DNA from: Bacillota bacterium
GTDB taxonomy: Bacteria > Bacillota > Dehalobacteriia > UBA4068
Assembly (NCBI GenBank): GCA_009778255.1
Contig: WRKD01000230.1
Coordinates: forward strand, 1-37,297
Length of the DNA: 37,297 nucleotides
Direction: 5' to 3'
The notes under the pieces are model-generated. The model searched no databases. It saw nothing but the letters and a program-made list of their open reading frames with translations, and was not told the origin of the DNA. A program made the translations under genes and the position numbers. Shown here one piece after another: positions 20,072 to 36,236 of the stretch. How positions within the stretch are numbered: position 1 is the first letter of the stretch; every line of letters starts with the position of its first letter.

Positions 20072-20761
20072 ATGTTAGTAGAGATAGTCTTTTTGCCAAT
20101 TAACGATGATCCTCTCACCGGGGAAGAGCTGGAATTGTTCCAGTTTGTTTCATTGGAAAAACAAAAGAAACTTTTAAGATACAGGCACTATATTGATAAA
20201 AAACTATCCTTATATGCGGATCTCTTAGTACGTTATTTAGCCTGTAAACATCTAGGCTTAACAAATGATGCTTTAGTGTTTTCTCAAACAAATAACGGAA
20301 AACCATATTTACTGGGAGGATATTTATTTGCTTTTAACCTCTCACATACTAGAAACGCTATCGCTGTTGCTATTGCAAAAAGAAACGTTGGCGTTGACAT
20401 TGAAAAGGTGGTAAACAATACAAACCATATTGATAGATGCAAAATATGCAAAGAGTTTTTTACAACTGATGAGCAAAATTATGTAATTTCTGAAGCGGAA
20501 GGAAGAGATTGGCGCTTTTATGAGATTTGGACACGAAAGGAAGCATATTTGAAATGGAAAGGTGAGGGTTTTTCTTTACAGGTGAATAATTTCAGTACTC
20601 TGCACACTGGCCAAGGAGTACAAATAAACGCTATACCTGTCGGAGAGTATATTATTACAGTTTGTACTGAAATTATTATTCAGAGGTATTGCCTTTATTG
20701 CTGGACGGAAACGACTGCAAAACAAAGATTTTTGAATACTTTATCTCACAATGCCAACTAG
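20072..20761 (+). CDS. 4'-phosphopantetheinyl transferase, Sfp type
   Basis: GKPYL, FNLSHTRNAIAVAIAKRNVGVDIEKV and WTRKEAYLKWKGEG are the Sfp-family motifs. Confidence 0.85.
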   Translation: MLVEIVFLPINDDPLTGEELELFQFVSLEKQKKLLRYRHYIDKKLSLYADLLVRYLACKHLGLTNDALVFSQTNNGKPYLLGGYLFAFNLSHTRNAIAVAIAKRNVGVDIEKVVNNTNHIDRCKICKEFFTTDEQNYVISEAEGRDWRFYEIWTRKEAYLKWKGEGFSLQVNNFSTLHTGQGVQINAIPVGEYIITVCTEIIIQRYCLYCWTETTAKQRFLNTLSHNAN

Positions 20762-20997
20762 AACCTATTTAAATATAACTATAGGGCGCCTTAATAATAG
20801 TGCAAAGCAAACAATACGGAATGGAAGGCTTATTATCTGATCAACAATCTGTATTTTGTGAATCGGAGGGGTATTGGTTTTAGAGGCTGTTGATTATCGG
20901 GCAATTATCAACGGGCTAAACAAAACTAAAACGCAGGATAAAACGTGTTATTGCCATATTATCGTATTAATAAAGCAACACTCTTTATAAAGGCGTG

Positions 20998-22590
20998 ATG
21001 GAATATATGTCAGAACAAAGCTCATTATTTCGGAAAGTTTCTTTGGATCGGCTATCCTCACCAGAACAACTTGACCAAAAAATAACGGTTATTTCACCGA
21101 TAGGTTGGGTGGCGATAGTTTCCTTAGCAATTTTGCTTTTTGCCGCAGTAGTTTGGGGTTTTTTAGGTATAGTATCAGATAAAGTAAGCGGCAACGGTAT
21201 ATTAATGTACGGTGATGGGATTGTGAGTATTACTTCTCAAACCAGTGGCCAGATTACCGATGTCTACGTGCAAGAAGGGAGCTATGTAGAAAAGGGGCAG
21301 ATTATTGCCCGTGTTACACAAGACGAGTTAACGCAGCAAATTGAGCAGGTGCAGAAAAGCATTGACGCATTGGATACAGTAAATGTGGAGTCACTTGATT
21401 TTGATATTTACTCTCTTAGCAACGAAGTATACTCTCAATTTGCCCCGTTATTGGGGCAAATTCGTTCTGCTCGTGTTCAGCATGAGGCACAAAGATTGGA
21501 AGCAGAGAAAAACGAGCAGGATATTATTAACCAAAAGGAACAGCAAGCACAGCAAATTAATGCGCTCAGAAGACAGATAGCAATGCTGGAGGGGCAAATA
21601 TTACAATATAATAAGCAGCTTGAAGTAGATTTGGAAAAAGCACAAAAAGAATTGGAAGATGCGGAAATTTTATTCGATTTGGGAGATATCTCCAAAAATC
21701 AACTTGATTCGTCAAGGGATGAAGTATCAAGATTATTGAGAGAAATTGAATTAAGAAGCCACGACATTAATAATGGCGACTTAGGAAATTTTGACAAAGA
21801 GCTCAACAAGCCGAGCTTTGATTCTTCGCTTGTTTCAATGCAGTCGCAGCTTGAGGGTTACCGATTGCAACTGATTCAGGCACAGACAAATAATACACTA
21901 CTTAATGATATTTTTACCGATTACCTTTGGGGAGCATACAACCAGACAGGTGACCAAATCTCCTCACTTATTGAACAGTTTGCCGATCGCAAGCAGGTCA
22001 CATTACAAGATTATCAAGAGCACTTGGAATATCTGCAAACTCAATATTCTAAAAAAACTGCGATAATAGCGGAATTCAGCGGCATTGTGTCAGGACTTAC
22101 GGTTCAGCCATACGATTTAGCACAACCAGGTTTTGTACTTGGCAATATCGTTCGGGGCGATCAGGTAGCTGTTAGTTCCAATGTCAAAATGTATGTACCG
22201 ATGGGTAAAGGCAAACTGGTTGAAGATGGAATGGAGGTAAATATATCACCCACTACAGTTAATAGGGAAGAGCATGGATATATTATCGGGCAGGTTGTGT
22301 CAGTGTCGGCTTCGTATGTTACTCAGGAACATATAATGTCTATTCTGCAAAATCAGCAACTCGTGATGGCTTTTGGCGGAAACTCGGCCGTTATTGAGGT
22401 AGAAGTAGAGCTGCTGCGCGATGACAATACTATAAGCGGTTACAAATGGTCAACTCCAAAAGGAGCGCCTCTCCCTATCAGCCCTGGCACTATCTGCCGG
22501 GGAGAAATAAAAGTATCCGACCGGCGGCCTATTGATATGATCGTTCCGTTTATTAAGAAACTTTTCCAATCAAGCGAGGATTACCAATGA
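20998..22590 (+). CDS. HlyD-family membrane fusion protein, NHLM-bacteriocin-system secretion protein type (TIGR03794-like)
   Basis: N-terminus SLFRKVSLDRLSSPEQLDQ followed by one TM segment. It has a biotinyl/lipoyl-like hairpin (GQITDVYVQEGSYVEKGQIIARV), a long coiled coil and a C-terminal beta-barrel. The ATG at 20998 follows AAAGG. Family call from memory of the model and the adjacent two-ABC architecture. Confidence 0.8.
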   Translation: MEYMSEQSSLFRKVSLDRLSSPEQLDQKITVISPIGWVAIVSLAILLFAAVVWGFLGIVSDKVSGNGILMYGDGIVSITSQTSGQITDVYVQEGSYVEKGQIIARVTQDELTQQIEQVQKSIDALDTVNVESLDFDIYSLSNEVYSQFAPLLGQIRSARVQHEAQRLEAEKNEQDIINQKEQQAQQINALRRQIAMLEGQILQYNKQLEVDLEKAQKELEDAEILFDLGDISKNQLDSSRDEVSRLLREIELRSHDINNGDLGNFDKELNKPSFDSSLVSMQSQLEGYRLQLIQAQTNNTLLNDIFTDYLWGAYNQTGDQISSLIEQFADRKQVTLQDYQEHLEYLQTQYSKKTAIIAEFSGIVSGLTVQPYDLAQPGFVLGNIVRGDQVAVSSNVKMYVPMGKGKLVEDGMEVNISPTTVNREEHGYIIGQVVSVSASYVTQEHIMSILQNQQLVMAFGGNSAVIEVEVELLRDDNTISGYKWSTPKGAPLPISPGTICRGEIKVSDRRPIDMIVPFIKKLFQSSEDYQ

Positions 22591-24803
22591 GTGCAATTTC
22601 TAAAAAAGCACCAAAGCAGGAAGCCCCGCGCATCAATAACAGAGTACGCACACCCAGCATCCTACAAATGGAAATGGTAGAATGCGGTTCAGCTTCTCTT
22701 GCCATGATTTGCGCCTATTATAAAAAATATATACCGCTTGAAGTGTTACGTGTAGAGTGTGGTGTCACAAGGGATGGCGTTAAGGCTGGTAATATGGCAA
22801 GGGCGGCCAAGAAAATAGGCTTTGATGTTAAAGGCTTCCGCAAAGAACCAGCCGATTTAGCCAAGTTGAAGCCCCCTATGATTATCCATTGGAATTTTAA
22901 TCATTTTGTGGTTTTCGAAGGTTTCAAAAACGGCAAGGCATATATCAACGATCCGGCAAGCGGACGGCGGATTCTTTCCTATGAAGAGTTTGACCTGGCG
23001 TTCACCGGAGTAGTCCTAACTTTTGAACTTACAGAAGAGTTCGAGAGAAGCGGACAAAAAAGCACCATGATATCTTCATTGGCAAAACGGCTGCGGGGTG
23101 TGCAAAGCGCAATTGTATTCCTGGTAATTGTGGGGCTGCTGCTGGTTATACCAGGTCTTATTATCCCGGCTTTCTCTCGTATATTCATAGACGATTTGCT
23201 ATTGGCTGGCAGAAGTGAATGGCTAAAGCCTCTGCTTTGGTGCATGGGGGCTACAGCGCTTCTACAAGCCATTCTTACAGGAATTCAACAACGATATCTA
23301 TTGCGCATGGAAACCAAGATTGCTCTAAGTGGCGCCAGCAGCTTTTTTTGGCATATCTTACGGTTACCCATATTATTTTTTCAACAGCGTTCCCCCGGTG
23401 ATATCAGTTCCCGACAGAATTCCAACAATACTGTGGCAGAATTTTTGTCACGGCAACTGGCGGAAAATGTAATTGGTGTTATCACGCTTATATTTTATTT
23501 TATTGTTATGTTGCAATATAATGTGCTGCTTACCATGCTAACCCTAGTGCTGGCGGTTATAAATGTATTGTATTTTATTTATTCTTCCGGGAAAGTTGAG
23601 GATTTAAATAGTAAGCTGAAACAAGATGTGGGAAAGCTAGCCGGGACTTCGGTATCAGGGCTATTCATAATTGAAACCCTTAAAGCCACAGGTTCGGAAT
23701 CCAGCTTTTTTGCAAAATGGGCGGGTTACCACGCCAAGCAGTTAAATTCCCTACAAAAGATGGGCGCCTTTGCCCAGATTTTGTTTACCCTGCCAAACTT
23801 TATGTCCGGGCTTGCCAGCGTAATTGTTTTGTGCGTGGGCGGGATGCAGATTTTGGACGGCAATATGACCGTAGGTACATTGATCGCATATCAAAGCCTT
23901 ATTGTTAATTTTATGCATCCTATTAGCAAACTTACACAGATGGGCATGAAGATAAAACAGCTTAAGGGAGATATGAGCCGCCTTGATGATGTACATAAAT
24001 ATGCTGTGGATAAATTCAGCGACCCCGATCGTGATTTAGCGCTTGAAGCTGTCGGCGAAGCCGATTTCCGCAAGCTGGAGGGCTATGTGGAGATAAAAAA
24101 CTTGAGTTTTGGCTATAATGTGTTGGAACAACCGCTTATCGAAGATTTCAATCTAAGCCTAAAGCCTGGATCCCGCGTGGCATTGGTTGGAGCTTCCGGC
24201 AGCGGTAAGAGTACGGTTGCCAAAATGCTTGCGGGCATTAACCGCCCTTGGGGTGGCGAAATTTTGTTTGATGGCGTAAGCAGGGACGATCTGCCGCGCA
24301 ATGTAATCAGTAACTCTCTGGCAGTAGTGGATCAGGATATCAGCATGTTTGAGGGAACTGTTCAGGACAATATAACCATGTGGGATGAAACAATCAGTGA
24401 TGCGGATATAGTGGGAGGCGCGAAGGACGCTTGCATCCACGATGACATTGCCGCACGCGAGGGTGGGTATAAAAGCACTATCAGGGAAGGCGGCGCAAAT
24501 TTCAGCGGCGGTCAGCGTCAGCGTTTGGAAATTGCCAGGGCTTTAGCTATCAATCCCTCTATTTTAATTCTTGATGAAGCTACCAGCGCGTTAGATGTGC
24601 GTACAGAAAAAATAGTCAATGATAATATCCGCAGGCGGGGTTGTACATGTATTATTGTGGCACATCGTTTAAGCACTATCCGAGACAGCGACGAGATTAT
24701 TGTTATGCATCGCGGTAAAATTGTTCAACGAGGCGCCCACGATGAAATGAAAAATGTTCCCGGTCCTTATGCTGAGCTAATTGAAACGGCGGTGAGTGTG
24801 TGA
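22587..24803 (+). CDS. Peptidase-containing ABC transporter (C39 double-glycine peptidase + TMD + NBD), NHLM ABC1 type (TIGR03796-like)
   Basis: C39 domain with Cys (QMEMVECGSASLAMICAYY), His (HWNFNHFVV) and Asp (INDPASG). Six-TM ABC exporter domain. Walker A GASGSGKST, signature FSGGQRQR, Walker B ILILDEATSALD. The ATG overlaps the upstream stop (ATGA). Confidence 0.9.
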   Translation: MSAISKKAPKQEAPRINNRVRTPSILQMEMVECGSASLAMICAYYKKYIPLEVLRVECGVTRDGVKAGNMARAAKKIGFDVKGFRKEPADLAKLKPPMIIHWNFNHFVVFEGFKNGKAYINDPASGRRILSYEEFDLAFTGVVLTFELTEEFERSGQKSTMISSLAKRLRGVQSAIVFLVIVGLLLVIPGLIIPAFSRIFIDDLLLAGRSEWLKPLLWCMGATALLQAILTGIQQRYLLRMETKIALSGASSFFWHILRLPILFFQQRSPGDISSRQNSNNTVAEFLSRQLAENVIGVITLIFYFIVMLQYNVLLTMLTLVLAVINVLYFIYSSGKVEDLNSKLKQDVGKLAGTSVSGLFIIETLKATGSESSFFAKWAGYHAKQLNSLQKMGAFAQILFTLPNFMSGLASVIVLCVGGMQILDGNMTVGTLIAYQSLIVNFMHPISKLTQMGMKIKQLKGDMSRLDDVHKYAVDKFSDPDRDLALEAVGEADFRKLEGYVEIKNLSFGYNVLEQPLIEDFNLSLKPGSRVALVGASGSGKSTVAKMLAGINRPWGGEILFDGVSRDDLPRNVISNSLAVVDQDISMFEGTVQDNITMWDETISDADIVGGAKDACIHDDIAAREGGYKSTIREGGANFSGGQRQRLEIARALAINPSILILDEATSALDVRTEKIVNDNIRRRGCTCIIVAHRLSTIRDSDEIIVMHRGKIVQRGAHDEMKNVPGPYAELIETAVSV

Positions 24804-27439: not shown

Positions 27440-27464
27440 TAGTATTATATTTTAGGTGGCAGAT

Positions 27465-28959: not shown

Positions 28960-28976
28960 ATATGGGAGTGGTGATA

Positions 28977-29276
28977 ATGCTTATCAACAAAATACAGGAA
29001 AACGGAAAACTTATTCTCGCCCTTGATGGTAAATTAGACACAAACACCTCATCGCAGCTTCAGCAAGTATTAATTCTCGCATTTGATGATGTAAAAGAAA
29101 TTGTACTGGATTTTAAGAATCTGGCCTATACATCGTCGGCAGGATTGCGTGTTCTGTTGCTGGGGCAGAAAACGGCAATAGCTAAAAAAGCATCCATGAC
29201 GCTTTGCAATGTTTCGGAAGAGATTATGGAAGTGTTTGATATGACCGGTTTTTCTGACATGCTGACCATTTTGTAA
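28977..29276 (+). CDS. STAS-domain anti-sigma-factor antagonist (SpoIIAA/RsbV-like), copy 1
   Basis: LILALDGKLDTNTSSQLQQ...LDFKNLAYTSSAGLRVLL...MTLCNVSEEIMEVFDMTGFSDML. It has the conserved phosphorylatable Ser context (SSAG). The ATG at 28977 lies 8 nt after GGAG. It is a 99-aa paralogue of the 35627..35926 product. Confidence 0.85.
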   Translation: MLINKIQENGKLILALDGKLDTNTSSQLQQVLILAFDDVKEIVLDFKNLAYTSSAGLRVLLLGQKTAIAKKASMTLCNVSEEIMEVFDMTGFSDMLTIL

Positions 29277-29295
29277 TTTGGAGGGTTGAGAGAAT

Positions 29296-32200
29296 ATGCG
29301 CAGCTTATCAAAATCTCAGAAAAACATATATTTGAATGATCTTAGTGGTGCAAAATTACCGGTAAACACACTACATACAACATTACAGTTTTTGGAAAAA
29401 ACTGATGATCTGCTACTTGAAAAAGCTGTGAACTTTGTTATATTAAACAATGATATTTTTAAAATACGAATTATTGATCAAGGCGGCGAACCGTTTCAAG
29501 ATTTTTGCGCTGAAATAAAAGAATGCAACATTGATAGCACTCTTTATTCCGATGAAGAGCTTTCTGTAATTTTTTTACAAAGAAAGACCCAGAAGTTTGA
29601 TGTTTATAAAACACTTTATGATTTCACGCTTTACCGAAAAAAAAATGGACTATGTGTGTTAAGTATAGTCACTCATCATATAATCGTTGACGGCTATGGC
29701 ATGGGGGTTCTTTGCGATGATATCCTGAGGGTTTACTGTTTATTACTTGAAGGAAGGATCCTAGTGGCCGAAACCTTGCCTTTTGCGGATTCTTTGCAAG
29801 TTACTGAAATAGATTATGAAGAAAACAAAGCCTTCTGGAACAGATATTTTGATGGTTTTGATATTGGCGGCAAACCTTTTGCCACTAAAAACGATTCTTT
29901 AATTGCTTCCGTTTTTAAGGGAGCAATAGAAAGCACCACCATCATGAAGTATTGCGCAAAGCATTCTCTTACTCCATATACCGTTTTTACAGCAGCATTA
30001 GGAATATACTTGATGAATATCTACGGGACAGACGAAACAGTTGTGATAATCCCGCGCATGAACAGAAGCCTGAATGAACGAAAAACAATCGGTTGTTTTG
30101 TGCTGCCCGTTCCTATAAGATTTAAAAAAACTGACAGTTTTGCGGCTTTATGTGAGCAGATCAGTCGTGAAGGCAAGGTTGTTAGCGCTCATAAAAAATA
30201 TGATTTCAGCCAAATAATTGAGGATTTTAAAAGAAAATTCAACACCGAAAGTCCAATTTCTGAGTTTACACTAAATTTTCAACTGAAAGACACCATAAGT
30301 AAAATCAAAACAAAAATGAATTTTAGCGCTTGCGGCGCTATGCGCAATCTTATAACGTTGAATATCAGCAATTATGAAGGTGATAATGTTTATGATATAA
30401 CCTATGACTACCGTAGTGATATATTAGATGAAAAGTATATGGCCTTCTTTCATAACGCATTGAAATGGATTATTAAACAGGGTGTATCCGGAACGCCTGT
30501 TAGCAAAATCAAAATTATACCAGATGCGGAGCTTGAGTATCTTAAAAACGAATTTAGAGGAGAAACGGTTTATTATAACAATCATGAAACCATTATCTCG
30601 CTATTCGAAAAAACAGTGAGTACAACGCCTTATGCCCCCGCTGTTTTTACCCGTGATAGAGAAGTACCTTTGACTTTTTCCGAATTAGACAATCTTTCCC
30701 ATAAAATCGCTGTTTCCTTACGAAAGAAAGGTGCGGAAAAAGGATCGCTTGTTGGCTTTTTGCTTGAAAGAAATTACACCCTTCTACCCACAATTCTTGG
30801 AATACTTAAGGCGGGTTGCGGATTTTTGCCCCTTGATATTAATTACCCCAAAGGGAGAATTGATTATATAATAAGCGACAGTAAAGCAAAATTTATTATT
30901 TCCGCCCCAAAGATAGCGCAAAAATTCGCAATCGATTATATTGATGTAAATGAGCTTTTGCTCGGAGGAATAAATGGATCCGTTCATGTAAAAGTAAATC
31001 AAGATGATTTGGCATATTGCATTTACACATCAGGAACAACCGGCCAGCCGAAAGGAGCTTTACTTGCCCATAAGGGCATAGTAAATATCACTCATCCCCT
31101 AAACAACCCATTCAACAAAGCTGTATGCGCAGTTGGTACAGGTATTGTCGCGATTGGTTCAATATGCTTCGACATATCTCTTTTTGAAATTTTAGTGTTT
31201 TTGCTGAACGGTAAGTTTGTGGCTATTGCTAATGATGATGAACTTGCAAATGGTGAAGCAATTGCGGAATTATTTTATAAAACGGGCGCAAACGCGCTCC
31301 ATTGCACACCCTCAAGGTTGCATAATTACCTTTTAGGCAGTTTATTTACGGATGTTTTAAAAACACAAATTAAGATAATTCTTTCTGCAGGCGAGGTACT
31401 GCCTTCTCATCTTGCCGCTATGATAATTGATTATAATATAAAAATATACAATGGCTACGGCCCCACAGAAACTACTATAGGCGCAACCATTACTGAAGCG
31501 GGTGATCGCGAAACCATTGGAAAGCCCATAGCCAACACGGCTGTTTATATAGTGGATGCAAAAAAAACGCTCCTGCCATTCGGTGTTACAGGTGAAATTG
31601 CTATAGCAGGTGATGGCGTTGGGCTTGGGTATATGGGAAATGATAAGCTTACAGCAGAAAAATTTACTGTAATAAACAACGAAAGGGTATATCTTACCGG
31701 AGATTTAGGACATTTTACCTCTGATGGGCAGCTTAAATATATGACAAGAAACGACAGCCAGGTGAAATTACGTGGATATAGAATAGAACTTGCTGAAATT
31801 GAACAATGCGCGCTGCAATGCCAAGGCGTTGAGAATTGCGCAGTGATTATGAAGAAAATAAACGACATAAATTATTTGATATTATATTATAGCGGTATAG
31901 AAGCAGTAAGCGAAAAACTTAAGGAGCATCTTAGAAAGTTTTTATCCTATTATATGGTGCCTCAAGTGGTCGTAAGATTGTCTTTTTTACCGACTAATAT
32001 CAATGGTAAAACTGACCGCGCGGCTTTGCTAAAGCTCTCTGTAGCGATGAAAAATGAATATGCGCCTCCATCTACAAAAGAAGAGAAGATACTTTGTAAA
32101 GCCTTTGAAATAGCGCTTTCTTTACCGAGAGTAGGGATAAATGACAATTTTTTTGAAATCGGCGGTACCTCCTTGTCGGCGGTAAAAATGATGATGTATG

Positions 32201-33483
32201 CCAACAAGTACGATCTTAGTGTAGAGTATTCAACTATATTTAAGTATCCTACACCGCATTTACTTGCAGAAAATATGCTAGAAAGCAAGATTCAAAATTA
32301 TTTATTACCGTTGGTTACCGCCAATGAAAAGGAATTTGAAAAAATAGACGAGCTCCTACAACAAAAACATAATGAGAATTTTTCGATCTCAGCTCTTTGC
32401 AATGTACTGGTTACGGGTGCAACAGGGTTTTTGGGGAGTCATATAATAAAATATCTTTTAGGCGATAGCTGCACAGGTAAAATATACTGCCTTGTGCGGG
32501 CTAAAGGAAAACTTACTCCGGAAAAACGATTGAAAACAACCCTTTTTTATTACTTTAATGATTTTTTTGAGGAACAATTTGCCAGAAAAATAAAGGTTAT
32601 TGGGGGAGATATGAGCCAAGATAACCTTTTTGCAAGCATTCCGTATGAAATAAACACCGCAATAAATTGCGCGGCCAATGTTGCCCATTTTGCCTATGGA
32701 GACGCACTGGAGTCGGTGAATATAAAAGCGGTGGAAAACTTGATCGATTTTTGCACAATAAAAAATGCTGAGCTTATCCATATCTCTACCATAAGCGTGG
32801 CAGGTCATACAATAAAGGACAATATTAATGACACTGTATATTCGGAACATGACTTATACAAAGGCCAGATCATTTCCAACGAATATATCTACAGTAAATT
32901 CGCTGCTGAATTTCTGGTGCTAAAAGCCAAGACAAAGGGGCTGAAAGTAAAAGTTATTCGGGTGGGTAACTTGCAGGGGAGAATGGACGACGGAGAATTT
33001 CAAATAAATTTGCAAAAAAACGCTTTTATGCGGAGTATTAAAGCATATGCAGCAATTGGAGGAGCGCCCGACGCCTTCAAAAATAATTCGGTAAACATTA
33101 CGCCGGTTGATGAAGCGGCAAAAGCCATACTATTACTTTCCGGGCTTCCCAACTGCTTCACGGTTTTTCATGTAATGAATGCCGTACCCGTTTCATACGA
33201 TCAGATATTTTTCATGTTTTCTACAATCGGAAAAGAAATCCACTATATGAAAAATGAGGAATTTGAAGAACTTATAGACCAACTCTACAAAGATAACGCT
33301 CAAAGTAGAAAAGTAGAAGGGCTGTTTCTTGAAAAAAGCGACATTCGGCTAAGAGAAATACCTATAAAGTCTGACTTTACGGTCAGAACTTTAAAAAATC
33401 TAAATTTCCAATTTAAGACAATAGAAAAAGACTACATAGAGAAATATTTATGCATGTTAAATGGTTTGGGTTTTTTCGATTAG
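29296..33483 (+). CDS. Single-module nonribosomal peptide synthetase, C-A-T-R (condensation, adenylation, thiolation, terminal reductase)
   Basis: C domain: LSKSQKNIYLND and HHIIVDGYG (HHxxxDG). A domain: LAYCIYTSGTTGQPKG, FDIS, NGYGPTETT, GEIAIAGDGVGLGYMG, YLTGDLG, LRGYRIELAEIE, NGKTDR. T domain: FFEIGGTSLSAV. R domain: VLVTGATGFLGSHI and YIYSK (YxxxK). My hand alignment to GrsA-PheA from memory gives a tentative specificity code D-I-F-H-L-A-G-I-G-K, which I cannot assign to a substrate. Confidence 0.9.
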   Translation: MRSLSKSQKNIYLNDLSGAKLPVNTLHTTLQFLEKTDDLLLEKAVNFVILNNDIFKIRIIDQGGEPFQDFCAEIKECNIDSTLYSDEELSVIFLQRKTQKFDVYKTLYDFTLYRKKNGLCVLSIVTHHIIVDGYGMGVLCDDILRVYCLLLEGRILVAETLPFADSLQVTEIDYEENKAFWNRYFDGFDIGGKPFATKNDSLIASVFKGAIESTTIMKYCAKHSLTPYTVFTAALGIYLMNIYGTDETVVIIPRMNRSLNERKTIGCFVLPVPIRFKKTDSFAALCEQISREGKVVSAHKKYDFSQIIEDFKRKFNTESPISEFTLNFQLKDTISKIKTKMNFSACGAMRNLITLNISNYEGDNVYDITYDYRSDILDEKYMAFFHNALKWIIKQGVSGTPVSKIKIIPDAELEYLKNEFRGETVYYNNHETIISLFEKTVSTTPYAPAVFTRDREVPLTFSELDNLSHKIAVSLRKKGAEKGSLVGFLLERNYTLLPTILGILKAGCGFLPLDINYPKGRIDYIISDSKAKFIISAPKIAQKFAIDYIDVNELLLGGINGSVHVKVNQDDLAYCIYTSGTTGQPKGALLAHKGIVNITHPLNNPFNKAVCAVGTGIVAIGSICFDISLFEILVFLLNGKFVAIANDDELANGEAIAELFYKTGANALHCTPSRLHNYLLGSLFTDVLKTQIKIILSAGEVLPSHLAAMIIDYNIKIYNGYGPTETTIGATITEAGDRETIGKPIANTAVYIVDAKKTLLPFGVTGEIAIAGDGVGLGYMGNDKLTAEKFTVINNERVYLTGDLGHFTSDGQLKYMTRNDSQVKLRGYRIELAEIEQCALQCQGVENCAVIMKKINDINYLILYYSGIEAVSEKLKEHLRKFLSYYMVPQVVVRLSFLPTNINGKTDRAALLKLSVAMKNEYAPPSTKEEKILCKAFEIALSLPRVGINDNFFEIGGTSLSAVKMMMYANKYDLSVEYSTIFKYPTPHLLAENMLESKIQNYLLPLVTANEKEFEKIDELLQQKHNENFSISALCNVLVTGATGFLGSHIIKYLLGDSCTGKIYCLVRAKGKLTPEKRLKTTLFYYFNDFFEEQFARKIKVIGGDMSQDNLFASIPYEINTAINCAANVAHFAYGDALESVNIKAVENLIDFCTIKNAELIHISTISVAGHTIKDNINDTVYSEHDLYKGQIISNEYIYSKFAAEFLVLKAKTKGLKVKVIRVGNLQGRMDDGEFQINLQKNAFMRSIKAYAAIGGAPDAFKNNSVNITPVDEAAKAILLLSGLPNCFTVFHVMNAVPVSYDQIFFMFSTIGKEIHYMKNEEFEELIDQLYKDNAQSRKVEGLFLEKSDIRLREIPIKSDFTVRTLKNLNFQFKTIEKDYIEKYLCMLNGLGFFD

Positions 33484-33576
33484 TCATGCAGCAAGTATTC
33501 TCACAAACATAGAGCAAAAGACACAGCGCACTTTAGGTTTTATCCTGTTTAATGCCCTTGGCAGAAAGGAATTTTT

Positions 33577-35085
33577 ATGAAAATCAGCTTGGATATTGTT
33601 TTTATTTGGACATTCGCGGTTTCTTTATCCGGCGTAATGTCTGCGCTTATTTGCGGCATAACTTTAAAAAGTAGATATACGAAATCAGTTGCCTTTTGGG
33701 GATATGCGCTTGCTTTTATTATCGGTTTTTTAATATCGTTTCTGCTGTATAATTCTAATATTTCGAACGATTTTGGCGGAATCGTTGTAATGTCTGTTTT
33801 AATCTGGATAGCCTGCCTGATAGTGAGTGCGGGGCATTGGTCATCAAAGTGGTTTGTCGCGATAATGGCAACACTCATTTCCAATGTATCGACTTTTTTT
33901 ATCTGCGGCCCAACCCTTAGTTTTATTGACGAAACGACAAACCCATATAATATTATAACCATTTCAATTTTTATTGGACTAAAAATAGTTTTATTTACAA
34001 TATTATTTGTCTTATATAAAATTAAGCTGAGGGAAAAGGTGCATAAGGTTATTGATGCTTTGAGCGGTAAAATGAGCAGTTATTTGCCTGTTGCGATCGT
34101 ATCATTTTTTGGATTCTATATAATCAATGTTATCACAAATAATATGGGAATAATCCCTTCCGCCATAACTATAGGTCAAATTAATCAAATAATAACCCTG
34201 CCGGATAGCTTGGAGCTCCGCTATATTTTTATTGCTCTTTACGGCGTCATAAGTCTTATTTTCATTCTGGAGTTCTGGCAAATGTTCGCTTCCGTTTTTT
34301 GGTCCTCACGCGCTCATAAAACAGAAGCTGAGTTAAACATTGCTAATAAAATTCAGCAGGACATGCTGCCCTGCATTTTCCCCGCATTCCCGGATCGCGC
34401 CGATTTTGATATATATGCCAGTATGCAGCCTGTGAAAGAAGTTGGCGGTGATTTTTATGATTTCTTCCTAGTTAATGACAATACACTTGCTGTGGTTATT
34501 GCCGATGTCTCTGATAAAGGCATACCCGCCGCGCTGTTTATGGTTATTACCAAAACCCTCATAAAAAACACCTCCCTTTCCGGCAAAAGCCCCAAGGAAG
34601 TTTTTGAAACCGTTAATAATATGCTTTGCGAAAATAATGAAGCCGGTATGTTTGTTACAGCATTTTTGGGTTTTCTTGATATTATCAGTGGAAAATTCAC
34701 TTATGTCAACGCAGGGCACAACTTACCGTTGCTGCGCTCCGGTAGTACCAATTCTACAAACAGGCGCTTTGACTGGTTGAAGGCCAAGCCTGGTTTTGTG
34801 CTGGCCGGTATGGAAGATATGTTTTATAAGCAAGAGGAAATTATTTTAAGGCCAGGGGACGAATTATTCTTATATACTGACGGTGTGACCGAGGCTGCAA
34901 ACCGCGAAAGCAAGTTATTTGGCTCCCCTCGTCTGATTGAAACGGCGAATGAGTATCTTGATTTGCCATTAAAGGAATTTACAATATCTATAAAACGAAA
35001 AATAGAAGAATTCGCTAATGGCGCCGAGCAGGCGGATGACATTACCATGCTTGCTTTACGGTATAAAGGGAAAGGCACGAGTTGA
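33577..35085 (+). CDS. Membrane-anchored PP2C/SpoIIE-family serine phosphatase (RsbU/SpoIIE-like) with multi-TM N-terminal domain
   Basis: The N-terminal ~250 aa are hydrophobic, with roughly 7-8 TM segments. The PPM domain has EVGGDFYDF, VIADVSDKGIPAALFM, NAGHN, LFLYTDGVTEA and ADDITMLAL. AAAGGA lies 6 nt upstream of the ATG. Confidence 0.85.
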   Translation: MKISLDIVFIWTFAVSLSGVMSALICGITLKSRYTKSVAFWGYALAFIIGFLISFLLYNSNISNDFGGIVVMSVLIWIACLIVSAGHWSSKWFVAIMATLISNVSTFFICGPTLSFIDETTNPYNIITISIFIGLKIVLFTILFVLYKIKLREKVHKVIDALSGKMSSYLPVAIVSFFGFYIINVITNNMGIIPSAITIGQINQIITLPDSLELRYIFIALYGVISLIFILEFWQMFASVFWSSRAHKTEAELNIANKIQQDMLPCIFPAFPDRADFDIYASMQPVKEVGGDFYDFFLVNDNTLAVVIADVSDKGIPAALFMVITKTLIKNTSLSGKSPKEVFETVNNMLCENNEAGMFVTAFLGFLDIISGKFTYVNAGHNLPLLRSGSTNSTNRRFDWLKAKPGFVLAGMEDMFYKQEEIILRPGDELFLYTDGVTEAANRESKLFGSPRLIETANEYLDLPLKEFTISIKRKIEEFANGAEQADDITMLALRYKGKGTS

Positions 35086-35097
35086 TAAGTAATTATT

Positions 35098-35577
35098 CTA
35101 CGCAACTTTTTTTTTAATCAGCAATATATTTTTATTATCCTCATAGCGATACTTTATGGCGTCTGCTATACTCTTTACCAAAAGAATACCTAATCCGCCA
35201 ACCTCCCGTTTTTCCGCGTCCAGTGTTATATCGGGGTCGTCTTTTTCAAGTGGGTTATAGGGTTTACCGCAGTCCTCGAATTCGATAATAACTTCATCAC
35301 CGACAGCTATACGAATTGCTACATTTCCAGCTGCTGTAGAAGGTTGTTCTCTTGGCAAACTGCTTGCCCAGGTATCTTCGCTATATGCATAATACACAAT
35401 ATTAACAAATATTTCTTCCACAACAAGAGCAAGTTGTGTTTGCAACTTCGCGGTGCAATTGCAGGCTGCCAATTCCCCAGTAATGAAATCCTTTACGGCA
35501 TCTAGGTTTTCTATTTTAGCTGTGGTTACAAACTCTTTTAAATTAATAAGGTTGTTTATATCCTTATTTTTTGGCAT
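35098..35577 (-). CDS. Anti-sigma-factor-type serine kinase (HATPase_c; RsbW/SpoIIAB-like)
   Basis: LALVVEEIFVNIVYYAY (N-box region), FEDCGKPYNP and GGLGILLVKSIADAIKY (G-boxes). The ATG at 35577 lies 9 nt after AAGGAG. The tracked longer start would overlap the STAS gene. Confidence 0.8.
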   Translation of the reverse strand: MPKNKDINNLINLKEFVTTAKIENLDAVKDFITGELAACNCTAKLQTQLALVVEEIFVNIVYYAYSEDTWASSLPREQPSTAAGNVAIRIAVGDEVIIEFEDCGKPYNPLEKDDPDITLDAEKREVGGLGILLVKSIADAIKYRYEDNKNILLIKKKVA

Positions 35578-35626
35578 AACATAAAACTCCTTATTACTAT
35601 TGCTGCCCAACTGTTGACTGGTATGA

Positions 35627-35926
35627 TCATTCAAAATTCAATACACTGGAAAACCCGGTTATTTCGAACACTTCCATAATATCTGGTGATACATTTACAA
35701 GAGTTTGCCGGCTGCCTTTTGTTTTTGCTGCTTTCTCACCCATAAGTAATATGCGTAGCCCTGCCGATGAAACAAAAATAAGCTTAGCGAAATCAAGCTC
35801 AATATGCTCTGCATTGCTGATTTCGGGGAGAAGAATTTCCTGTAATTTAGGGGATGTGGTAGTATCTAGCCTGCCAGATAAGACAATTGTTGTTTTTTCT
35901 TCATTGTGGATTACATTAATATTCAA
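35627..35926 (-). CDS. STAS-domain anti-sigma-factor antagonist (SpoIIAA/RsbV-like), copy 2
   Basis: TIVLSGRLDTTTSPKLQE...LDFAKLIFVSSAGLRILL...QTLVNVSPDIMEVFEITGFSSVL. The TTG start follows AGGAGAGGA by 5 nt. It lies directly upstream of the RsbW-like kinase gene. Confidence 0.85.
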   Translation of the reverse strand: MNINVIHNEEKTTIVLSGRLDTTTSPKLQEILLPEISNAEHIELDFAKLIFVSSAGLRILLMGEKAAKTKGSRQTLVNVSPDIMEVFEITGFSSVLNFE

Positions 35927-36017
35927 ATTTATCCTCTCCTACCCCTCAAATTCATGCAATAAAAATTAAAATTTCCCCTCAATGCCCTAGAGAATTAGTG
36001 CAAAGGGGTAAAACTAT

Positions 36018-36236
36018 CTACTTGTTTTTCTGAAATTCCTCCGATTTATCGCAGTGTTCCGTGGTGCTAGCCAGACCGCCGCCTACTTTATCAAACTTTT
36101 CTATAGATAGCGTGTCAGATGGCGTATCGGCATTTCGAGACAGGCGCACCAAAATTTTCTCCCAAACAGCCTTCTCGCGCCCTGCGGAAAAATCAATGGC
36201 ATTAAATAATTTTTCTATTTCAAAAAACTTATTCAT
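36018..36236 (-). CDS. 72-aa peptide with double-glycine-type leader motif (candidate PCAT substrate / RiPP-like precursor or signal peptide)
   Basis: MNKFFEIEKLFNAIDFSAGREKAVWEKILVRLSRNADTPSDTLSIEKFDKVGGG|LASTTEHCDKSEEFQKNK. LSIEKFDKVGGG places hydrophobic residues at -12, -7 and -4 relative to GG, as in double-glycine leaders. GAGGA lies 7 nt upstream of the ATG. It is the first gene of the minus-strand operon. Function is inferred, not demonstrated. Confidence 0.55.
   Translation of the reverse strand: MNKFFEIEKLFNAIDFSAGREKAVWEKILVRLSRNADTPSDTLSIEKFDKVGGGLASTTEHCDKSEEFQKNK

What the first reader, a model, noticed from the sequence alone, without database searches (positions are those of the whole stretch)
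20072..36236. Composite locus: PPTase + NHLM-type exporter triad + HExxH protein + ECF sigma + partner-switching module + C-A-T-R NRPS + double-glycine peptide (candidate undescribed system)
Seen in sequence: nine co-directional genes run from 20072 to 35085 with overlapping or very short junctions. ATGA overlaps occur at 22587/22590, a GTGTGA overlap at 24800/24803, an 8-nt overlap at 28420/28427, and the other gaps are 17-93 nt. They converge on a three-gene minus-strand operon (36236 to 35098). Established knowledge: HlyD-like + C39-ABC + second ABC is the NHLM bacteriocin export architecture (TIGR03794/03796/03797). PP2C + STAS + HATPase_c kinase is a partner-switching module. A C-A-T-R module with an Sfp-type PPTase makes a reductively released (aldehyde or alcohol) product. 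Inference: I know of no characterised system that combines a ribosomal double-glycine peptide, its dedicated exporter, a one-module reductive NRPS and a sigma/partner-switch circuit in one tight locus. Model (a): a hybrid ribosomal/nonribosomal secreted product. Model (b): an autoinduction circuit in which the exported peptide or NRPS product is sensed by the multi-TM PP2C and fed through STAS and the kinase to the ECF sigma.
Basis: partly seen in the sequence, partly recalled or inferred. Interest (0 to 1): 0.85.

Follow-up and report, generated by a model that had tools for sequence, protein, structure and literature searches.

The report
Regulated peptide-export island with embedded NRPS
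An uncultured termite-gut-type Clostridium carries a conserved gene island that combines a bacteriocin-type peptide exporter, an alternative sigma factor apparently gated by a phosphatase/kinase switch, a dedicated one-module peptide synthetase and a new family of small exported peptides; no paper in the searched library describes this combination, and its product is unknown.

Summary
All twelve genes are present at the stated coordinates and pass family models.

The juxtaposition is not chance:
- A distant lineage keeps kinase-NRPS-PP2C beside an NHLM exporter.

1. A long-leader double-glycine precursor with a YcaO lies just past the window's right end.
2. A promoter-like motif, TGTAAT-N17-GTAGTTAT, occurs exactly twice in the window. 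The two copies fire divergently into the peptide-STAS-kinase operon and the M20-YcaO-precursor operon. The same motif precedes precursor genes in sister loci.
3. The 72-aa peptide belongs to a family of at least 13 small proteins with a conserved leader ending LSxxELDxVAGG and a hypervariable hydrophilic tail.

The NRPS product and the small peptide are probably signals. A hybrid product is not excluded. The PPTase is not conserved elsewhere. This is a new variant of known kinds.

The parts
20072..20761 (+). Sfp-type 4'-phosphopantetheinyl transferase. It is an accessory, not a conserved part of the cassette.
   Evidence: PF01648 (50 bits) and PF22624 (44 bits). The best NCBIfam hit is AusB, at 80 bits against a cut-off of 225. 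A 233-nt gap separates it from the next gene. No homologue appears in the other four complete loci with the NRPS.
20995..22590 (+). HlyD-like adaptor of the NHLM exporter (alternative ATG start at 21007).
   Evidence: TIGR03794, 298 bits against a cut-off of 156. One N-terminal transmembrane segment.
22587..24803 (+). ABC1: C39 peptidase, permease and ATPase.
   Evidence: TIGR03796, 1060 bits against a cut-off of 853; PF03412, 122 bits. An ECG cysteine and an NHFVV...NDP histidine/aspartate are visible in the sequence.
24800..27439 (+). ABC2: permease and ATPase without a peptidase domain. It has an extra N-terminal stretch of about 190 aa that matches no family.
   Evidence: TIGR03797, 852 bits against a cut-off of 709, covering residues 192-878.
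27456..28427 (+). DUF7005, a cytoplasmic HExxH protein and conserved fourth gene of NHLM export loci (ATG start at 27465 gives the 320-aa database protein).
   Evidence: PF22541, 259 bits. H203, E204, H207, D223, E224 and D228 are invariant in 19 sequences. 42 of 48 fully flanked GTDB loci carry an NHLM ABC gene within 10 kb. The AlphaFold2 model has pLDDT 89.8 and no PDB match better than E = 0.99. No transmembrane segment.
28420..28959 (+). ECF sigma factor, the putative pathway-specific activator.
   Evidence: TIGR02937, 78 bits against a cut-off of 43; Sigma70_r2 and r4_2. It overlaps DUF7005 by 8 nt. In-frame DUF7005-sigma fusions exist elsewhere.
28962..29276 (+). STAS1, an anti-sigma-antagonist-type protein found only in loci that have the NRPS.
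   Evidence: PF01740, 54 bits; TIGR00377, 69 bits against a cut-off of 53. An SSAGL motif is present. It is 68-88% identical in L090, L098, L107, L111 and L113, and absent from the four loci without the NRPS.
29296..33483 (+). Single-module NRPS with C-A-T-R domains.
   Evidence: Condensation, AMP-binding, PP-binding and NAD_binding_4 domains. The motifs HHIIVDG, GGTSL, TGATGFLG and YxxxK are intact. The Stachelhaus code DIFHLAGIGK is invariant in 8 orthologues and in a 36%-identical homologue.
33577..35085 (+). Membrane PP2C (SpoIIE-type) phosphatase. Roughly 8 hydrophobic segments precede a C-terminal PP2C domain.
   Evidence: PF07228, 160 bits, residues 301-496. Hydropathy scan. It follows the NRPS directly in all loci that have the NRPS and in the distant locus L114.
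35098..35634 (-). HATPase_c_2 serine kinase, an RsbW-like putative anti-sigma factor (the called ATG start at 35577 gives 159 aa).
   Evidence: PF13581, 63 bits. RsbW and SpoIIAB equivalog models are far below cut-off. 44% identical to the kinase upstream of the L114 NRPS.
35627..35926 (-). STAS2, an anti-sigma-antagonist-type protein and the orthologue of the single STAS in loci without the NRPS.
   Evidence: PF01740 and PF13466; TIGR00377, 63 bits against a cut-off of 53. It scores higher than STAS1 against the sister-locus STAS.
36018..36236 (-). PEP72, a small double-glycine peptide: a conserved leader of about 54 aa and an 18-aa hydrophilic core, LASTTEHCDKSEEFQKNK.
   Evidence: Translation. 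Syntenic homologues in L098, L107, L111 and L113. 13 small relatives share the IDFSxGxExAVWEKI and LSxxELDxVAGG motifs and have variable tails. No Pfam or NCBIfam hit.
36336..36369 (-). Promoter-like bipartite motif P1 (TGTAAT-N17-GTAGTTAT), facing PEP72-STAS2-kinase.
   Evidence: Weight-matrix score 39.2. The window has only two hits at or above 14, against none in 20 shuffles. The matrix was trained on sites that include these two. The same motif precedes PEP72 in L107, L111 and L113.
36532..36565 (+). Promoter-like bipartite motif P2, facing the M20-YcaO-precursor operon.
   Evidence: Weight-matrix score 32.9. The same motif precedes YcaO in L111 and the precursor genes in L109, L010 and L099.
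36648..37297 (+). 5' part of an M20 amidohydrolase gene, cut by the window end. On the contig it is followed by a 625-aa YcaO, a 107-aa long-leader double-glycine precursor and a 70-aa membrane protein.
   Evidence: Contig context from L001 and L008. Translations. TIGR01891, 335 bits against a cut-off of 154; the YcaO domain model TIGR00702, 116 bits against a cut-off of 76.

Best explanation
The region is the export-and-control core of a bacteriocin/RiPP-type peptide island in an uncultured Clostridia lineage.

**Export (by homology).** The NHLM pump has three genes: a HlyD-like adaptor, a C39-peptidase ABC protein and a second ABC protein. Together with its conserved cytoplasmic companion DUF7005, it cleaves peptides after a double-glycine motif and exports them. 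The likely cargo is (a) long-leader Nif11-like precursors encoded with a YcaO just beyond the window, and (b) the 72-aa peptide PEP72.

**Transcription (inferred from conserved motifs).** The ECF sigma factor is the pathway-specific activator. It reads TGTAAT-N17-GTAGTTAT promoters. In this window two such promoters fire divergently, one into PEP72-STAS2-kinase and one into M20-YcaO-precursor.

**Gating (inferred from domain families and gene order).** The HATPase_c_2 kinase acts as an RsbW-like anti-sigma factor. Dephosphorylated STAS sequesters the kinase. The multi-pass membrane PP2C is the sensory input that dephosphorylates STAS.

**Signals (inference only).** The C-A-T-R NRPS makes a reductively released amino aldehyde or alcohol, possibly N-acylated. 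Together with the exported PEP72 core it is most probably a signal that feeds back on the PP2C. This would be an induction loop like the pheromone/kinase/regulator circuits of class II bacteriocins, but wired through a partner switch and an ECF sigma factor.
For: **The locus is a conserved unit.**
- Synteny holds in five complete loci (window, L098, L107, L111, L113) and several truncated ones (L090, L093, L094, L097) at 66-83% identity.
- The specificity code and catalytic motifs are invariant.

**The NRPS travels with the switch.**
- In the distant locus L114, the kinase (44% identical), NRPS (32%) and PP2C (41%) are contiguous.
- They lie 4 kb from an ABC1/ABC2 pair that passes TIGR03796 and TIGR03797.

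**Sigma plus partner switch is conserved without the NRPS.**
- Sister loci L109, L110, L010 and L099 have DUF7005, sigma, PP2C, STAS and kinase next to double-glycine precursors.

**A promoter-like motif links the parts.**
- The motif occurs exactly twice in the window, as divergent sites 85-100 nt upstream of the two operons.
- It also precedes PEP72 in L107, L111 and L113, YcaO in L111, and precursor genes in L109, L010 and L099.
- A related TGTAAT-N16-CGTATT motif precedes precursors, radical-SAM genes and DUF7005 in Desulfotomaculia loci, two of which (L021, L082) show the DUF7005-linked sigma factor.

**PEP72 looks like exporter cargo.**
- Its family has a conserved leader ending LSxxELDxVAGG and a hypervariable hydrophilic tail.
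- Its gene is first in the operon with the signalling genes.
- The ABC1 C39 domain has visible Cys, His and Asp residues.

**Precedents from the literature.**
- ECF sigma/anti-sigma control of a RiPP with auto-induction: microbisporicin MibX/MibW (PMC4973701).
- An ECF sigma encoded beside partner-switch genes at a secretion system: the Bordetella btr locus (PMC7498569).
Against: - No experiment links this sigma factor to the motif. The motif is absent upstream of the exporter-DUF7005-sigma-NRPS-PP2C operon, upstream of PEP72 in L098, and in L003, L005, L102 and L110.
- RsbW-type kinases normally hold group-3 sigma factors, not ECF ones. The kinase scores far below the RsbW and SpoIIAB equivalog cut-offs and has no sequence match in the PDB.
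- L114 has kinase, NRPS and PP2C but no STAS, sigma or DUF7005 in 24 kb. The kinase may therefore have a target other than a sigma factor.
- Loci without the NRPS keep a homologous PP2C membrane domain (48-60% identical), so the NRPS product cannot be its universal ligand.
- One PEP72 homologue ends in SGC and two in ASG rather than GG.
- The chemistry of the NRPS product and the donor substrate of its C domain are unknown.
- The long-leader precursors do not reach the TIGR03798 cut-off.
Confidence: 0.45

Rival explanations
1. Hybrid ribosomal/non-ribosomal product. The conserved N-terminal leader motif of PEP72 recruits it to the NRPS or a partner. The reductively released aldehyde, or the NRPS-bound aminoacyl group, is joined to the PEP72 core, for example at its frequent Cys or at the new N-terminal Leu. 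The pump then exports the conjugate.
For: - PEP72, STAS1 and the NRPS occur together in 5 of 5 complete loci with the NRPS and in 0 of 4 loci without it.
- The PEP72 leader has a second conserved motif, IDFSxGxExAVWEKI, which export alone would not require. Five cores, including the window's, share LSxxxE[HRY]CD with variants at the first two residues.
- The invariant A-domain code suggests one fixed building block.
Against: - No enzyme for joining the two is evident. An N-terminal C domain normally takes a thioester donor, which a ribosomal peptide lacks.
- Several family members lack Cys.
- In L114, no PEP72 homologue was detected by similarity in the 24 kb around kinase-NRPS-PP2C.
- On trees of the shared genes, loci with and without the NRPS are sister groups. 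The co-occurrence may therefore reflect a single gain or loss event.
Confidence: 0.15
2. The partner switch controls export or enzyme activity rather than the sigma factor. This would resemble Bordetella BtrU/BtrW/BtrV, which govern type III secretion post-transcriptionally, or the STAS protein MlaB, which binds an ABC ATPase. STAS or the kinase would bind the ABC proteins, DUF7005 or the NRPS. The sigma factor would be controlled by DUF7005.
For: - Partner-switch genes lie near NHLM/DUF7005 loci that show no ECF homologue: L015, L036 and L050.
- L114 has the kinase and PP2C flanking the NRPS with no sigma or STAS nearby.
- DUF7005 and sigma overlap by 8 nt, are adjacent in many Firmicutes without any partner switch, and are fused in P0012 and P0026.
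- The Bordetella precedent is described in PMC7498569.
- Both STAS proteins have weak MlaB hits.
Against: - In the termite-gut clade the order sigma-PP2C-STAS-kinase mirrors sigB/sigF-type operons.
- The kinase-STAS operon sits behind the same motif as the precursor genes, as expected for sigma/anti-sigma feedback.
- The MlaB hits are far below cut-off.
Confidence: 0.2
3. The NRPS is an independent small biosynthetic cluster that was inserted into a regulatory operon and is inherited with it, with no functional tie to the peptide system. The composite is then two neighbouring islands.
For: - The exporter + DUF7005 (+ sigma) core exists in at least 42 other fully flanked loci without the NRPS.
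- Sister termite-gut loci work without it.
- The PPTase is not conserved.
- No sigma-type motif precedes the NRPS.
Against: - The NRPS sits inside the operon, with gaps of 19 nt and 93 nt, between STAS1 and PP2C in every locus that has it.
- The kinase-NRPS-PP2C adjacency next to an NHLM pump recurs at 32% NRPS identity.
Confidence: 0.12
4. PEP72 is an export-coupled regulator in the manner of FlgM or Bordetella BtrA. Its conserved N-terminal domain binds and inhibits the sigma factor or the kinase. Cleavage by the C39 pump, possibly followed by leader degradation by DUF7005, relieves the inhibition and so couples transcription to pump activity.
For: - The conserved N-terminal motif is stronger than the tail.
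- The gene is co-transcribed with STAS2 and the kinase behind the sigma-type motif.
- A secreted anti-sigma factor exists in the analogous Bordetella btr locus (PMC7498569).
- DUF7005 has a conserved HExxH...DE...D signature and is cytoplasmic.
Against: - Double-glycine processing exports the tail, not the leader, so the putative inhibitory domain stays in the cell.
- Loci without the NRPS have the same sigma factor without PEP72.
- PEP72 shows no similarity to known anti-sigma domains.
Confidence: 0.08

Closest known systems
NHLM (NHLP/Nif11-leader) bacteriocin export system, TIGR03794/03796/03797 (Haft et al. 2010, PMC2887384)
   Same: - All three exporter genes pass the equivalog cut-offs.
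- The C39 domain appears to have its catalytic residues.
- Precursors with long leaders ending ...LDEVAGG lie nearby.
   Different: - The 2010 description is a three-gene cassette. Here a fourth gene, DUF7005, is tightly linked across phyla.
- The local precursors do not reach the Nif11-leader model cut-off.
- A second family of short-leader peptides (PEP72) with hydrophilic tails is present.
Three-component induction of class II bacteriocins and competence: double-glycine pheromone + histidine kinase + response regulator + ComAB-type exporter (own knowledge: ComCDE/ComAB, PlnABCD, BlpCHR)
   Same: - A small double-glycine peptide gene is first in an operon with signal-transduction genes.
- A C39 ABC exporter is present.
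- A shared promoter motif precedes both the signal operon and the peptide-product operon.
   Different: - There is no histidine kinase or response regulator.
- The signalling genes are a membrane PP2C, STAS, a HATPase_c_2 kinase and an ECF sigma factor.
- A dedicated NRPS is embedded in the locus.
RsbU/RsbV/RsbW-SigB and SpoIIE/SpoIIAA/SpoIIAB-SigF partner-switching modules
   Same: The same three domain families are present, in a comparable gene order in the sister loci: sigma, PP2C, STAS, kinase.
   Different: - The sigma factor is an ECF (group 4), not group 3.
- The kinase is far below the RsbW/SpoIIAB equivalog cut-offs.
- There are two STAS paralogues.
- The phosphatase has a membrane domain of about 8 segments that matches no family.
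Bordetella btr locus: ECF sigma BtrS, secreted anti-sigma BtrA, partner switchers BtrU/BtrW/BtrV at a type III secretion system (PMC7498569)
   Same: An ECF sigma factor is encoded with a PP2C, a kinase and a STAS protein next to a secretion machine whose substrates it controls.
   Different: - The secretion system differs: an ABC/C39 pump versus an injectisome.
- It is a Gram-positive-type lineage.
- There is no BtrA homologue.
- An NRPS is present.
ECF-controlled RiPP clusters: microbisporicin MibX/MibW (PMC4973701)
   Same: A pathway-specific ECF sigma factor lies inside a RiPP cluster, with feed-forward auto-induction.
   Different: There the anti-sigma is a membrane protein, MibW. Here no such gene is present and a partner switch takes its place.
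Stand-alone C-A-T-R and related reductive NRPSs: myxochelin MxcG, aureusimine AusA/AusB
   Same: - The domain order is the same, and the alignment to the MxcG model is full length (354 bits).
- The PPTase is closest to AusB.
- The R-domain motifs are intact.
   Different: - The scores are far below both equivalog cut-offs (2300 and 2500).
- No aryl carrier or second module is present.
- I could not assign the specificity code DIFHLAGIGK to a substrate.
- The NRPS is embedded in a sigma/partner-switch operon.

Membership tests
NHLM bacteriocin exporter (TIGR03794/03796/03797) | All three subunits score above the curated equivalog cut-offs. | tested here: met
   298 > 156, 1060 > 853 and 852 > 709.
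NHLM bacteriocin exporter (TIGR03794/03796/03797) | An active C39 peptidase domain on ABC1 (Cys, His and Asp). | tested here: inconclusive
   PF03412, 122 bits. ECG, NHFVV and NDP residues are visible in the translation, but I did not align them residue by residue to a characterised C39 domain.
NHLM bacteriocin exporter (TIGR03794/03796/03797) | Cognate NHLP (TIGR03793) or Nif11-leader (TIGR03798) precursors are present. | tested here: not met
   The 107-aa precursor on the contig has no NCBIfam hit. The L111 paralogue scores 16.6 against a cut-off of 32.3. Both have long leaders ending LDEVAGG, so they are Nif11-like only.
Partner-switching module (RsbU/V/W type) | A PP2C phosphatase, a STAS antagonist and a HATPase_c-type serine kinase are encoded together. 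| tested here: met
   PF07228, 160 bits; PF01740, 54 and 49 bits; TIGR00377, 69 and 63 against a cut-off of 53; PF13581, 63 bits.
Partner-switching module (RsbU/V/W type) | The kinase is an RsbW/SpoIIAB equivalog that binds a group-3 sigma factor. | tested here: not met
   RsbW models score 18.5 against 145 and 13.6 against 155; the SpoIIAB model scores 13.6 against 135. The only sigma factor in the locus is an ECF. Binding cannot be tested with these tools.
Partner-switching module (RsbU/V/W type) | A phosphorylatable serine in the STAS protein. | tested here: inconclusive
   Both STAS proteins carry SSAGL at the expected place. I did not align it to SpoIIAA Ser58, and there are no phosphorylation data.
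ECF (group 4) sigma factor | Only sigma regions 2 and 4 are present, and the score is above the ECF superfamily cut-off. | tested here: met
   TIGR02937, 77.8 against a cut-off of 42.9; Sigma70_r2 and r4_2; 179 aa.
ECF (group 4) sigma factor | An adjacent cognate anti-sigma factor with an anti-sigma domain, usually a membrane protein. | tested here: not met
   No neighbouring gene matches an anti-sigma-domain family. The neighbours are DUF7005 and STAS1.
Reductive single-module NRPS (C-A-T-R) | C, A, T and thioester-reductase domains with intact catalytic motifs. | tested here: met
   Pfam domains all pass their cut-offs. HHxxxDG, the Asp235/Lys517 code ends, GGxS, TGxxGxxG and YxxxK are conserved in 10 homologues. 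TIGR01746 alone is below its cut-off (175 < 213).
Reductive single-module NRPS (C-A-T-R) | Equivalog of a characterised enzyme (AusA, MxcG). | tested here: not met
   AusA model, 612 against a cut-off of 2500; MxcG model, 354 against 2300.
DUF7005 (PF22541) | Score above the Pfam gathering cut-off. | tested here: met
   259.5 bits against a cut-off of 27, covering 341 of 361 profile positions.
Zincin-type metallopeptidase (for DUF7005) | An HExxH helix plus a third ligand within a zincin fold. | tested here: inconclusive
   HExxH and the downstream DE...D are invariant. The confident model (pLDDT 89.8) has no PDB match better than E = 0.99. The weak top hits include M3 and M1 peptidases and EryP, at TM 0.2-0.3.
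Class II bacteriocin three-component induction system | A double-glycine induction peptide, a histidine kinase and a response regulator. | tested here: not met
   The peptide is present. No histidine kinase or response regulator lies between 19.0 and 37.3 kb. The similarity is functional only.
Hybrid RiPP-NRPS natural product | A covalent link between a ribosomal core peptide and an NRPS-derived unit. | not testable with these tools
   Only co-occurrence is available: 5 of 5 loci with the NRPS against 0 of 4 without.

The most novel reading that the evidence does not exclude
This would be a previously undescribed cell-cell signalling design. A dedicated one-module reductive NRPS makes a small aldehyde or alcohol autoinducer, alone or joined to the exported PEP72 core. 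The membrane domain of a PP2C phosphatase senses it. The signal passes through STAS and a kinase to an ECF sigma factor, which switches on ribosomal peptide production. If so, NRPS-PP2C would be a synthase-receptor pair conserved across distant Clostridia.
Probability: 0.22. Interest if true: 0.85.

Novelty: new variant of a known kind. Interest (0 to 1): 0.62.

Why it matters
- If the circuit works as proposed, it shows a partner switch controlling an ECF sigma factor. It would also give Nif11/NHLP-type peptide clusters in anaerobic Firmicutes their first pathway-specific regulator and a promoter motif that can be searched for.
- It marks DUF7005 as an unstudied fourth component of a very widespread peptide exporter: 213 relatives among GTDB species representatives.
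- It defines a new small-peptide family and an NRPS clade with a fixed but unassigned specificity code. That clade was found only inside this regulatory context.
- All of this is testable by heterologous expression. The motif plus the sigma gene offers a handle for switching on silent clusters of this type.

Tried and rejected
**Searches that found little or nothing**
- An exact-sequence look-up of the 323-aa DUF7005 ORF failed. The database protein starts at the ATG three codons later.
- The word-indexed protein search with PEP72 found only itself. The full HMMER scan was needed to find the family. Three large coiled-coil or repeat proteins in that list (P0115, P0124, P0125) were set aside as compositional matches; only P0125 was inspected.
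- The Foldseek PDB search of the DUF7005 model gave no significant hit.
- The PDB sequence search of the kinase gave no hit.
- The generic sigma-70 promoter and terminator scan showed only a modest excess over shuffles and nothing interpretable.
- The Rfam scan found only a tRNA at 12702-12787.
- The repeat search found only the paralogy between the two STAS genes.
- Literature searches for DUF7005, for RiPP-NRPS hybrids, for termite-gut biosynthetic clusters, and for Nif11/NHLP together with ECF or SpoIIE returned nothing relevant.
- The context look-up for the 36%-identical Lachnospiraceae NRPS (P0055) failed.

**Ideas rejected**
- That the PPTase is part of the conserved cassette. It is absent elsewhere.
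- That the exporter operon is driven by the same motif. There is no site upstream of it.
- That the long-leader precursors are bona fide TIGR03798 members. They are below the cut-off.

**Not done**
- I could not assign a substrate to the code DIFHLAGIGK from memory and did not try to force one.

Full report
**1. Observation**

The ORF map shows nine co-directional plus-strand genes from 20072 to 35085 and three minus-strand genes from 36236 to 35098.

Two details differ. The PPTase-to-HlyD gap is 233 nt. ECF-to-STAS1 is 2 nt with the longest ORF, or 17 nt with the called start.

Profile searches confirm every assignment:
- Sfp-type PPTase
- TIGR03794 (298 > 156), TIGR03796 (1060 > 853) and TIGR03797 (852 > 709)
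- the HExxH protein, which is Pfam DUF7005 (259 bits)
- an ECF sigma factor (TIGR02937, 78 > 43)
- two STAS proteins
- an NRPS with C, A, T and NAD_binding_4 domains
- a SpoIIE-type PP2C with roughly eight N-terminal hydrophobic segments
- a HATPase_c_2 kinase

The 72-aa ORF (PEP72) matches no family. Upstream of 17.5 kb the window holds housekeeping genes.

**2. Origin, and what lies just outside the window**

The window is part of a 41.7-kb contig of a MAG labelled 'Firmicutes bacterium'. Related contigs come from JGI and ENA metagenomes and from MAGs with isolate names such as Nt197P4bin16 and Th196P3bin40. From my own knowledge these are termite-hindgut bins.

Reading the contig beyond the window's right end gives four more genes:
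- an M20 amidohydrolase, whose gene starts at window 36648
- a 625-aa YcaO
- a 107-aa peptide with a long leader ending ...LEDLDEVAGG and an Ala/Gly-rich core
- a 70-aa membrane protein

These precursors resemble Nif11-type leaders but do not reach the TIGR03798 cut-off. I call them Nif11-like only.

**3. The conserved core is exporter + DUF7005 (+ sigma)**

A scan of one genome per GTDB species with a DUF7005 alignment found 213 relatives in many phyla. Among the 80 loci fetched, 61 carry an NHLM-type ABC gene at 300 bits or more. Among the 48 with full 10-kb flanks, 42 do, and 35 have the whole triad.

The 2010 description of the NHLM system lists three genes only (PMC2887384). 'DUF7005' has no hit in the paper library.

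DUF7005 has these properties:
- It is cytoplasmic.
- It has invariant H203, E204, H207, D223, E224 and D228.
- It folds confidently (pLDDT 89.8).
- It has no significant PDB neighbour. The weak top hits include zinc peptidases.

In Firmicutes an ECF sigma gene follows DUF7005 (L003, L017, L035, L040, L059, L080). Two database proteins are in-frame DUF7005-sigma fusions.

**4. The composite with the NRPS is conserved**

In the termite-gut clade there are five complete loci: the window, L098, L107, L111 and L113. There are also truncated ones: L090, L093, L094 and L097. All keep the order HlyD, ABC1, ABC2, DUF7005, ECF, STAS1, NRPS, PP2C, plus a three-gene unit of small ORF, STAS2 and kinase. 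NRPS identity is 66-75%. The three-gene unit is convergent in four loci and co-directional in L107.

The protein database holds only eight NRPS orthologues at 55% identity or more. Seven are on contigs that also carry DUF7005: four loci were read directly and three are inferred from matching contig lengths. The eighth contig is 4.8 kb. Identity then falls to 36%.

All catalytic motifs are intact. The ten-residue specificity code DIFHLAGIGK is invariant, even in the 36%-identical homologue.

Four sister loci (L109, L110, L010, L099) have DUF7005, ECF, PP2C, STAS and kinase. They lack the NRPS, STAS1 and the small ORF, and sit next to double-glycine precursors and/or radical-SAM genes. Trees of ABC1, ABC2, DUF7005 and the sigma factor place the two locus types as sister groups. 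NRPS, STAS1 and PEP72 were therefore probably gained or lost together once.

The PPTase has no counterpart in the other four complete loci with the NRPS.

**5. A distant echo**

A homologue with a 32%-identical NRPS (code DIFYLAGIGK) comes from an unrelated sample (L114). A kinase (44% identical) lies immediately upstream of it, and a PP2C (41% identical overall) immediately downstream. The PP2C catalytic domain is 57% identical and its multi-segment membrane domain 27%.

An ABC1/ABC2 pair that passes TIGR03796 and TIGR03797 lies 4 kb downstream. No STAS, sigma factor or DUF7005 appears in the 24 kb.

The NRPS-PP2C-kinase-NHLM association is therefore older than the termite-gut clade. This argues against a passive insertion.

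**6. A promoter-like motif ties the parts together**

Upstream regions of PEP72 (window, L107, L111, L113), of M20/YcaO (window, L111) and of the precursor genes in L109, L010 and L099 share TGTAAT-N17-GTAGTTAT with a partly conserved spacer.

- **Weight-matrix scan.** A matrix built from 11 instances finds exactly two sites in the 37-kb window, at 36336-36369 (minus strand) and 36532-36565 (plus strand). They are divergent and lie 85-100 nt upstream of the two start codons. Nothing else scores at or above 14, and 20 shuffles gave no hit. The two window sites were among the training instances. The only new site found was in L010.
- **Looser pattern.** A looser pattern gives 4 window hits against 0.33 expected.
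- **Related motif.** In Desulfotomaculia loci, TGTAAT-N16-CGTATT sits directly upstream of precursor genes with classic ...LDAVAGG leaders, of radical-SAM genes and of DUF7005 itself. L021 has four copies. Two of these loci (L021, L082) showed the DUF7005-linked sigma factor by similarity.

The CGT-containing -10 element and the fixed spacing fit an ECF-type promoter. Assigning the motif to this sigma factor is my inference.

No site precedes the exporter-DUF7005-sigma-NRPS-PP2C operon, PEP72 in L098, or anything in L003, L005, L102 and L110.

**7. PEP72 is a real peptide family**

A full HMMER scan of 1.84 billion representatives finds 13 small proteins of 62-109 aa (12 of them 62-76 aa) at 38-53% identity. 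They share:
- an N-terminal motif, IDFSxGxExAVWEKIxxRL
- a leader end, LSxxELDxVAGG, which is the same signature as NHLM cargo; variants are SGC (one) and ASG (two)
- a hydrophilic, acidic, hypervariable tail of 13-23 aa, in four of them (and in the window peptide) of the form LSxxxE[HRY]CD

A conserved leader with a variable core, a position at the head of the signalling operon, and a sigma-type motif upstream resemble the induction peptides of class II bacteriocin and competence systems. That comparison rests on my own knowledge.

**8. Mechanism**

Shown directly:
- gene families
- synteny
- co-inheritance
- the motif and its positions
- the peptide family

Inferred:
- The C39 pump cleaves and exports both peptide types.
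- The ECF sigma factor reads the motif.
- The kinase is its anti-sigma factor, STAS its antagonist and the membrane PP2C the sensor.
- The NRPS product and/or the PEP72 core act as inducers.

Literature precedents exist for an ECF-controlled, auto-induced RiPP (PMC4973701) and for an ECF sigma factor encoded with partner-switch genes at a secretion system (PMC7498569).

Weak points:
- RsbW-type kinases are not known to me to hold ECF sigma factors.
- L114 lacks STAS and a sigma factor.
- Partner-switch genes also accompany NHLM/DUF7005 loci that show no ECF homologue (L015, L036, L050). The switch might therefore act on the pump, on DUF7005 or on the NRPS instead.
- The PP2C membrane domain is 68-76% identical among loci with the NRPS, but still 48-60% in loci without it.

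**9. Comparison and novelty**

Each component belongs to a known family. The exporter is a bona fide NHLM system.

What appears new:
- a partner switch apparently wired to an ECF sigma factor inside a peptide-export island
- a dedicated C-A-T-R NRPS clade not found in any other context
- the PEP72 family
- DUF7005 as a fourth exporter-linked gene
- the promoter motif

No paper in the searched open-access library links Nif11/NHLP systems with ECF sigma factors or SpoIIE-type phosphatases. I could not run antiSMASH or MIBiG.

I rate it a new variant of known kinds, with moderate-to-high interest. The product and the signalling logic are still hypothetical.

Noticed in passing
L008 837-1160 (-), 1451-3328 (-), 198-410 (-); same contig, about 0.6-4 kb beyond the window's right end: Next to a stand-alone 625-aa YcaO lie a 107-aa long-leader double-glycine precursor (...LEDLDEVAGG|GKVLDTAAKIGEAAAGAAGFAVAAAAN) and a 70-aa membrane protein. 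The same YcaO + Ala-rich precursor set occurs in L111 and in Desulfotomaculum L080 and L035, with a methyltransferase in L111 and L080. The chemistry of this YcaO on cores that largely lack Cys, Ser and Thr is unclear.
   Followed up: partly
window 27456-28427; loci L010-L089: DUF7005 is linked to the NHLM exporter triad across many phyla: 42 of 48 fully flanked loci, and 213 relatives among GTDB representatives. It has an invariant HExxH...DE...D signature and a confident predicted fold with no PDB neighbour. It looks like an undescribed fourth component of the system.
   Followed up: partly
P0012 (489 aa), P0026 (513 aa), P0044: In-frame fusions of DUF7005 with the ECF sigma factor, with different linkers. 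They suggest that the two proteins interact physically, although sequencing frameshifts in the 8-nt overlap are not excluded.
   Followed up: partly
L021 1563, 9829, 11021, 14823; L023 11081, 12916, 12924; L082 8032, 9769, 13388; L014 1627, 1638: TGTAAT-N16-CGTATT (A/CGTATT or AGTATT variants in some copies) lies directly upstream of NHLP/Nif11-type precursors, radical-SAM genes and DUF7005 in Desulfotomaculia and Syntrophomonas loci. It is a candidate regulon motif for the DUF7005-linked sigma factor.
   Followed up: partly
L114 9565-15921 and 19867-24234: A distant lineage (Logan SRR29713739) has kinase-NRPS-PP2C contiguous, and 4 kb downstream a truncated HlyD-like ORF and a bona fide NHLM ABC1/ABC2 pair. 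A possible TGTAAT-N17-GTTATGAT precedes the kinase. No STAS or sigma gene was seen.
   Followed up: partly
L050 11082-19174; L015 18181-20838; L036 6562-6867: Partner-switch genes also sit beside DUF7005/NHLM loci in Cytophagia (with a LanM-like DUF4135 protein and a 1532-aa sensor kinase-receiver-PP2C fusion), in Chthoniobacter (PAS-GAF-PP2C) and in Pelotomaculum (a STAS gene about 100 nt after DUF7005). None of the three shows an ECF homologue.
   Followed up: partly
L080 11674-11970; L103 3976-4164: Directly after the sigma gene in other Firmicutes there are other small double-glycine peptides with short hydrophilic cores (...ELDMVAGG|VNMNKMTDEQGKKGGL; ...LDELDNVAGG|VSHTDIKLPK...). They are unrelated in leader sequence to PEP72.
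   Followed up: no
window 24800-25375 (ABC2 residues 1-191): ABC2 carries an N-terminal extension of about 190 aa ahead of the TIGR03797 match. It has no Pfam hit. The sequence FFVLEGTINIY looks like a cyclic-nucleotide-binding or cupin-like fold, but this was not tested.
   Followed up: no
L113 18310-24115: In this locus with the NRPS, the flank beyond PEP72 encodes a nitroreductase, an iron alcohol dehydrogenase and an aldehyde dehydrogenase. These could act on an NRPS-derived aldehyde, or they could be unrelated.
   Followed up: no
window 17593-19496: An AAA_14/DUF4143 ATPase gene (minus strand) and a truncated DUF4143 fragment (plus strand) lie immediately upstream of the PPTase. They mark the left border of the island and may be a remnant of a rearrangement.
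   Followed up: no
window 29199-29254 and 35649-35704: The two STAS genes are paralogues in opposite orientation: 56 nt at 77% complementarity, and about 50% protein identity. STAS2 is the orthologue of the single STAS in loci without the NRPS.
   Followed up: yes
window 12702-12787 (+): A tRNA gene (Rfam RF00005, 57 bits) lies among the housekeeping genes upstream of the island.
   Followed up: no
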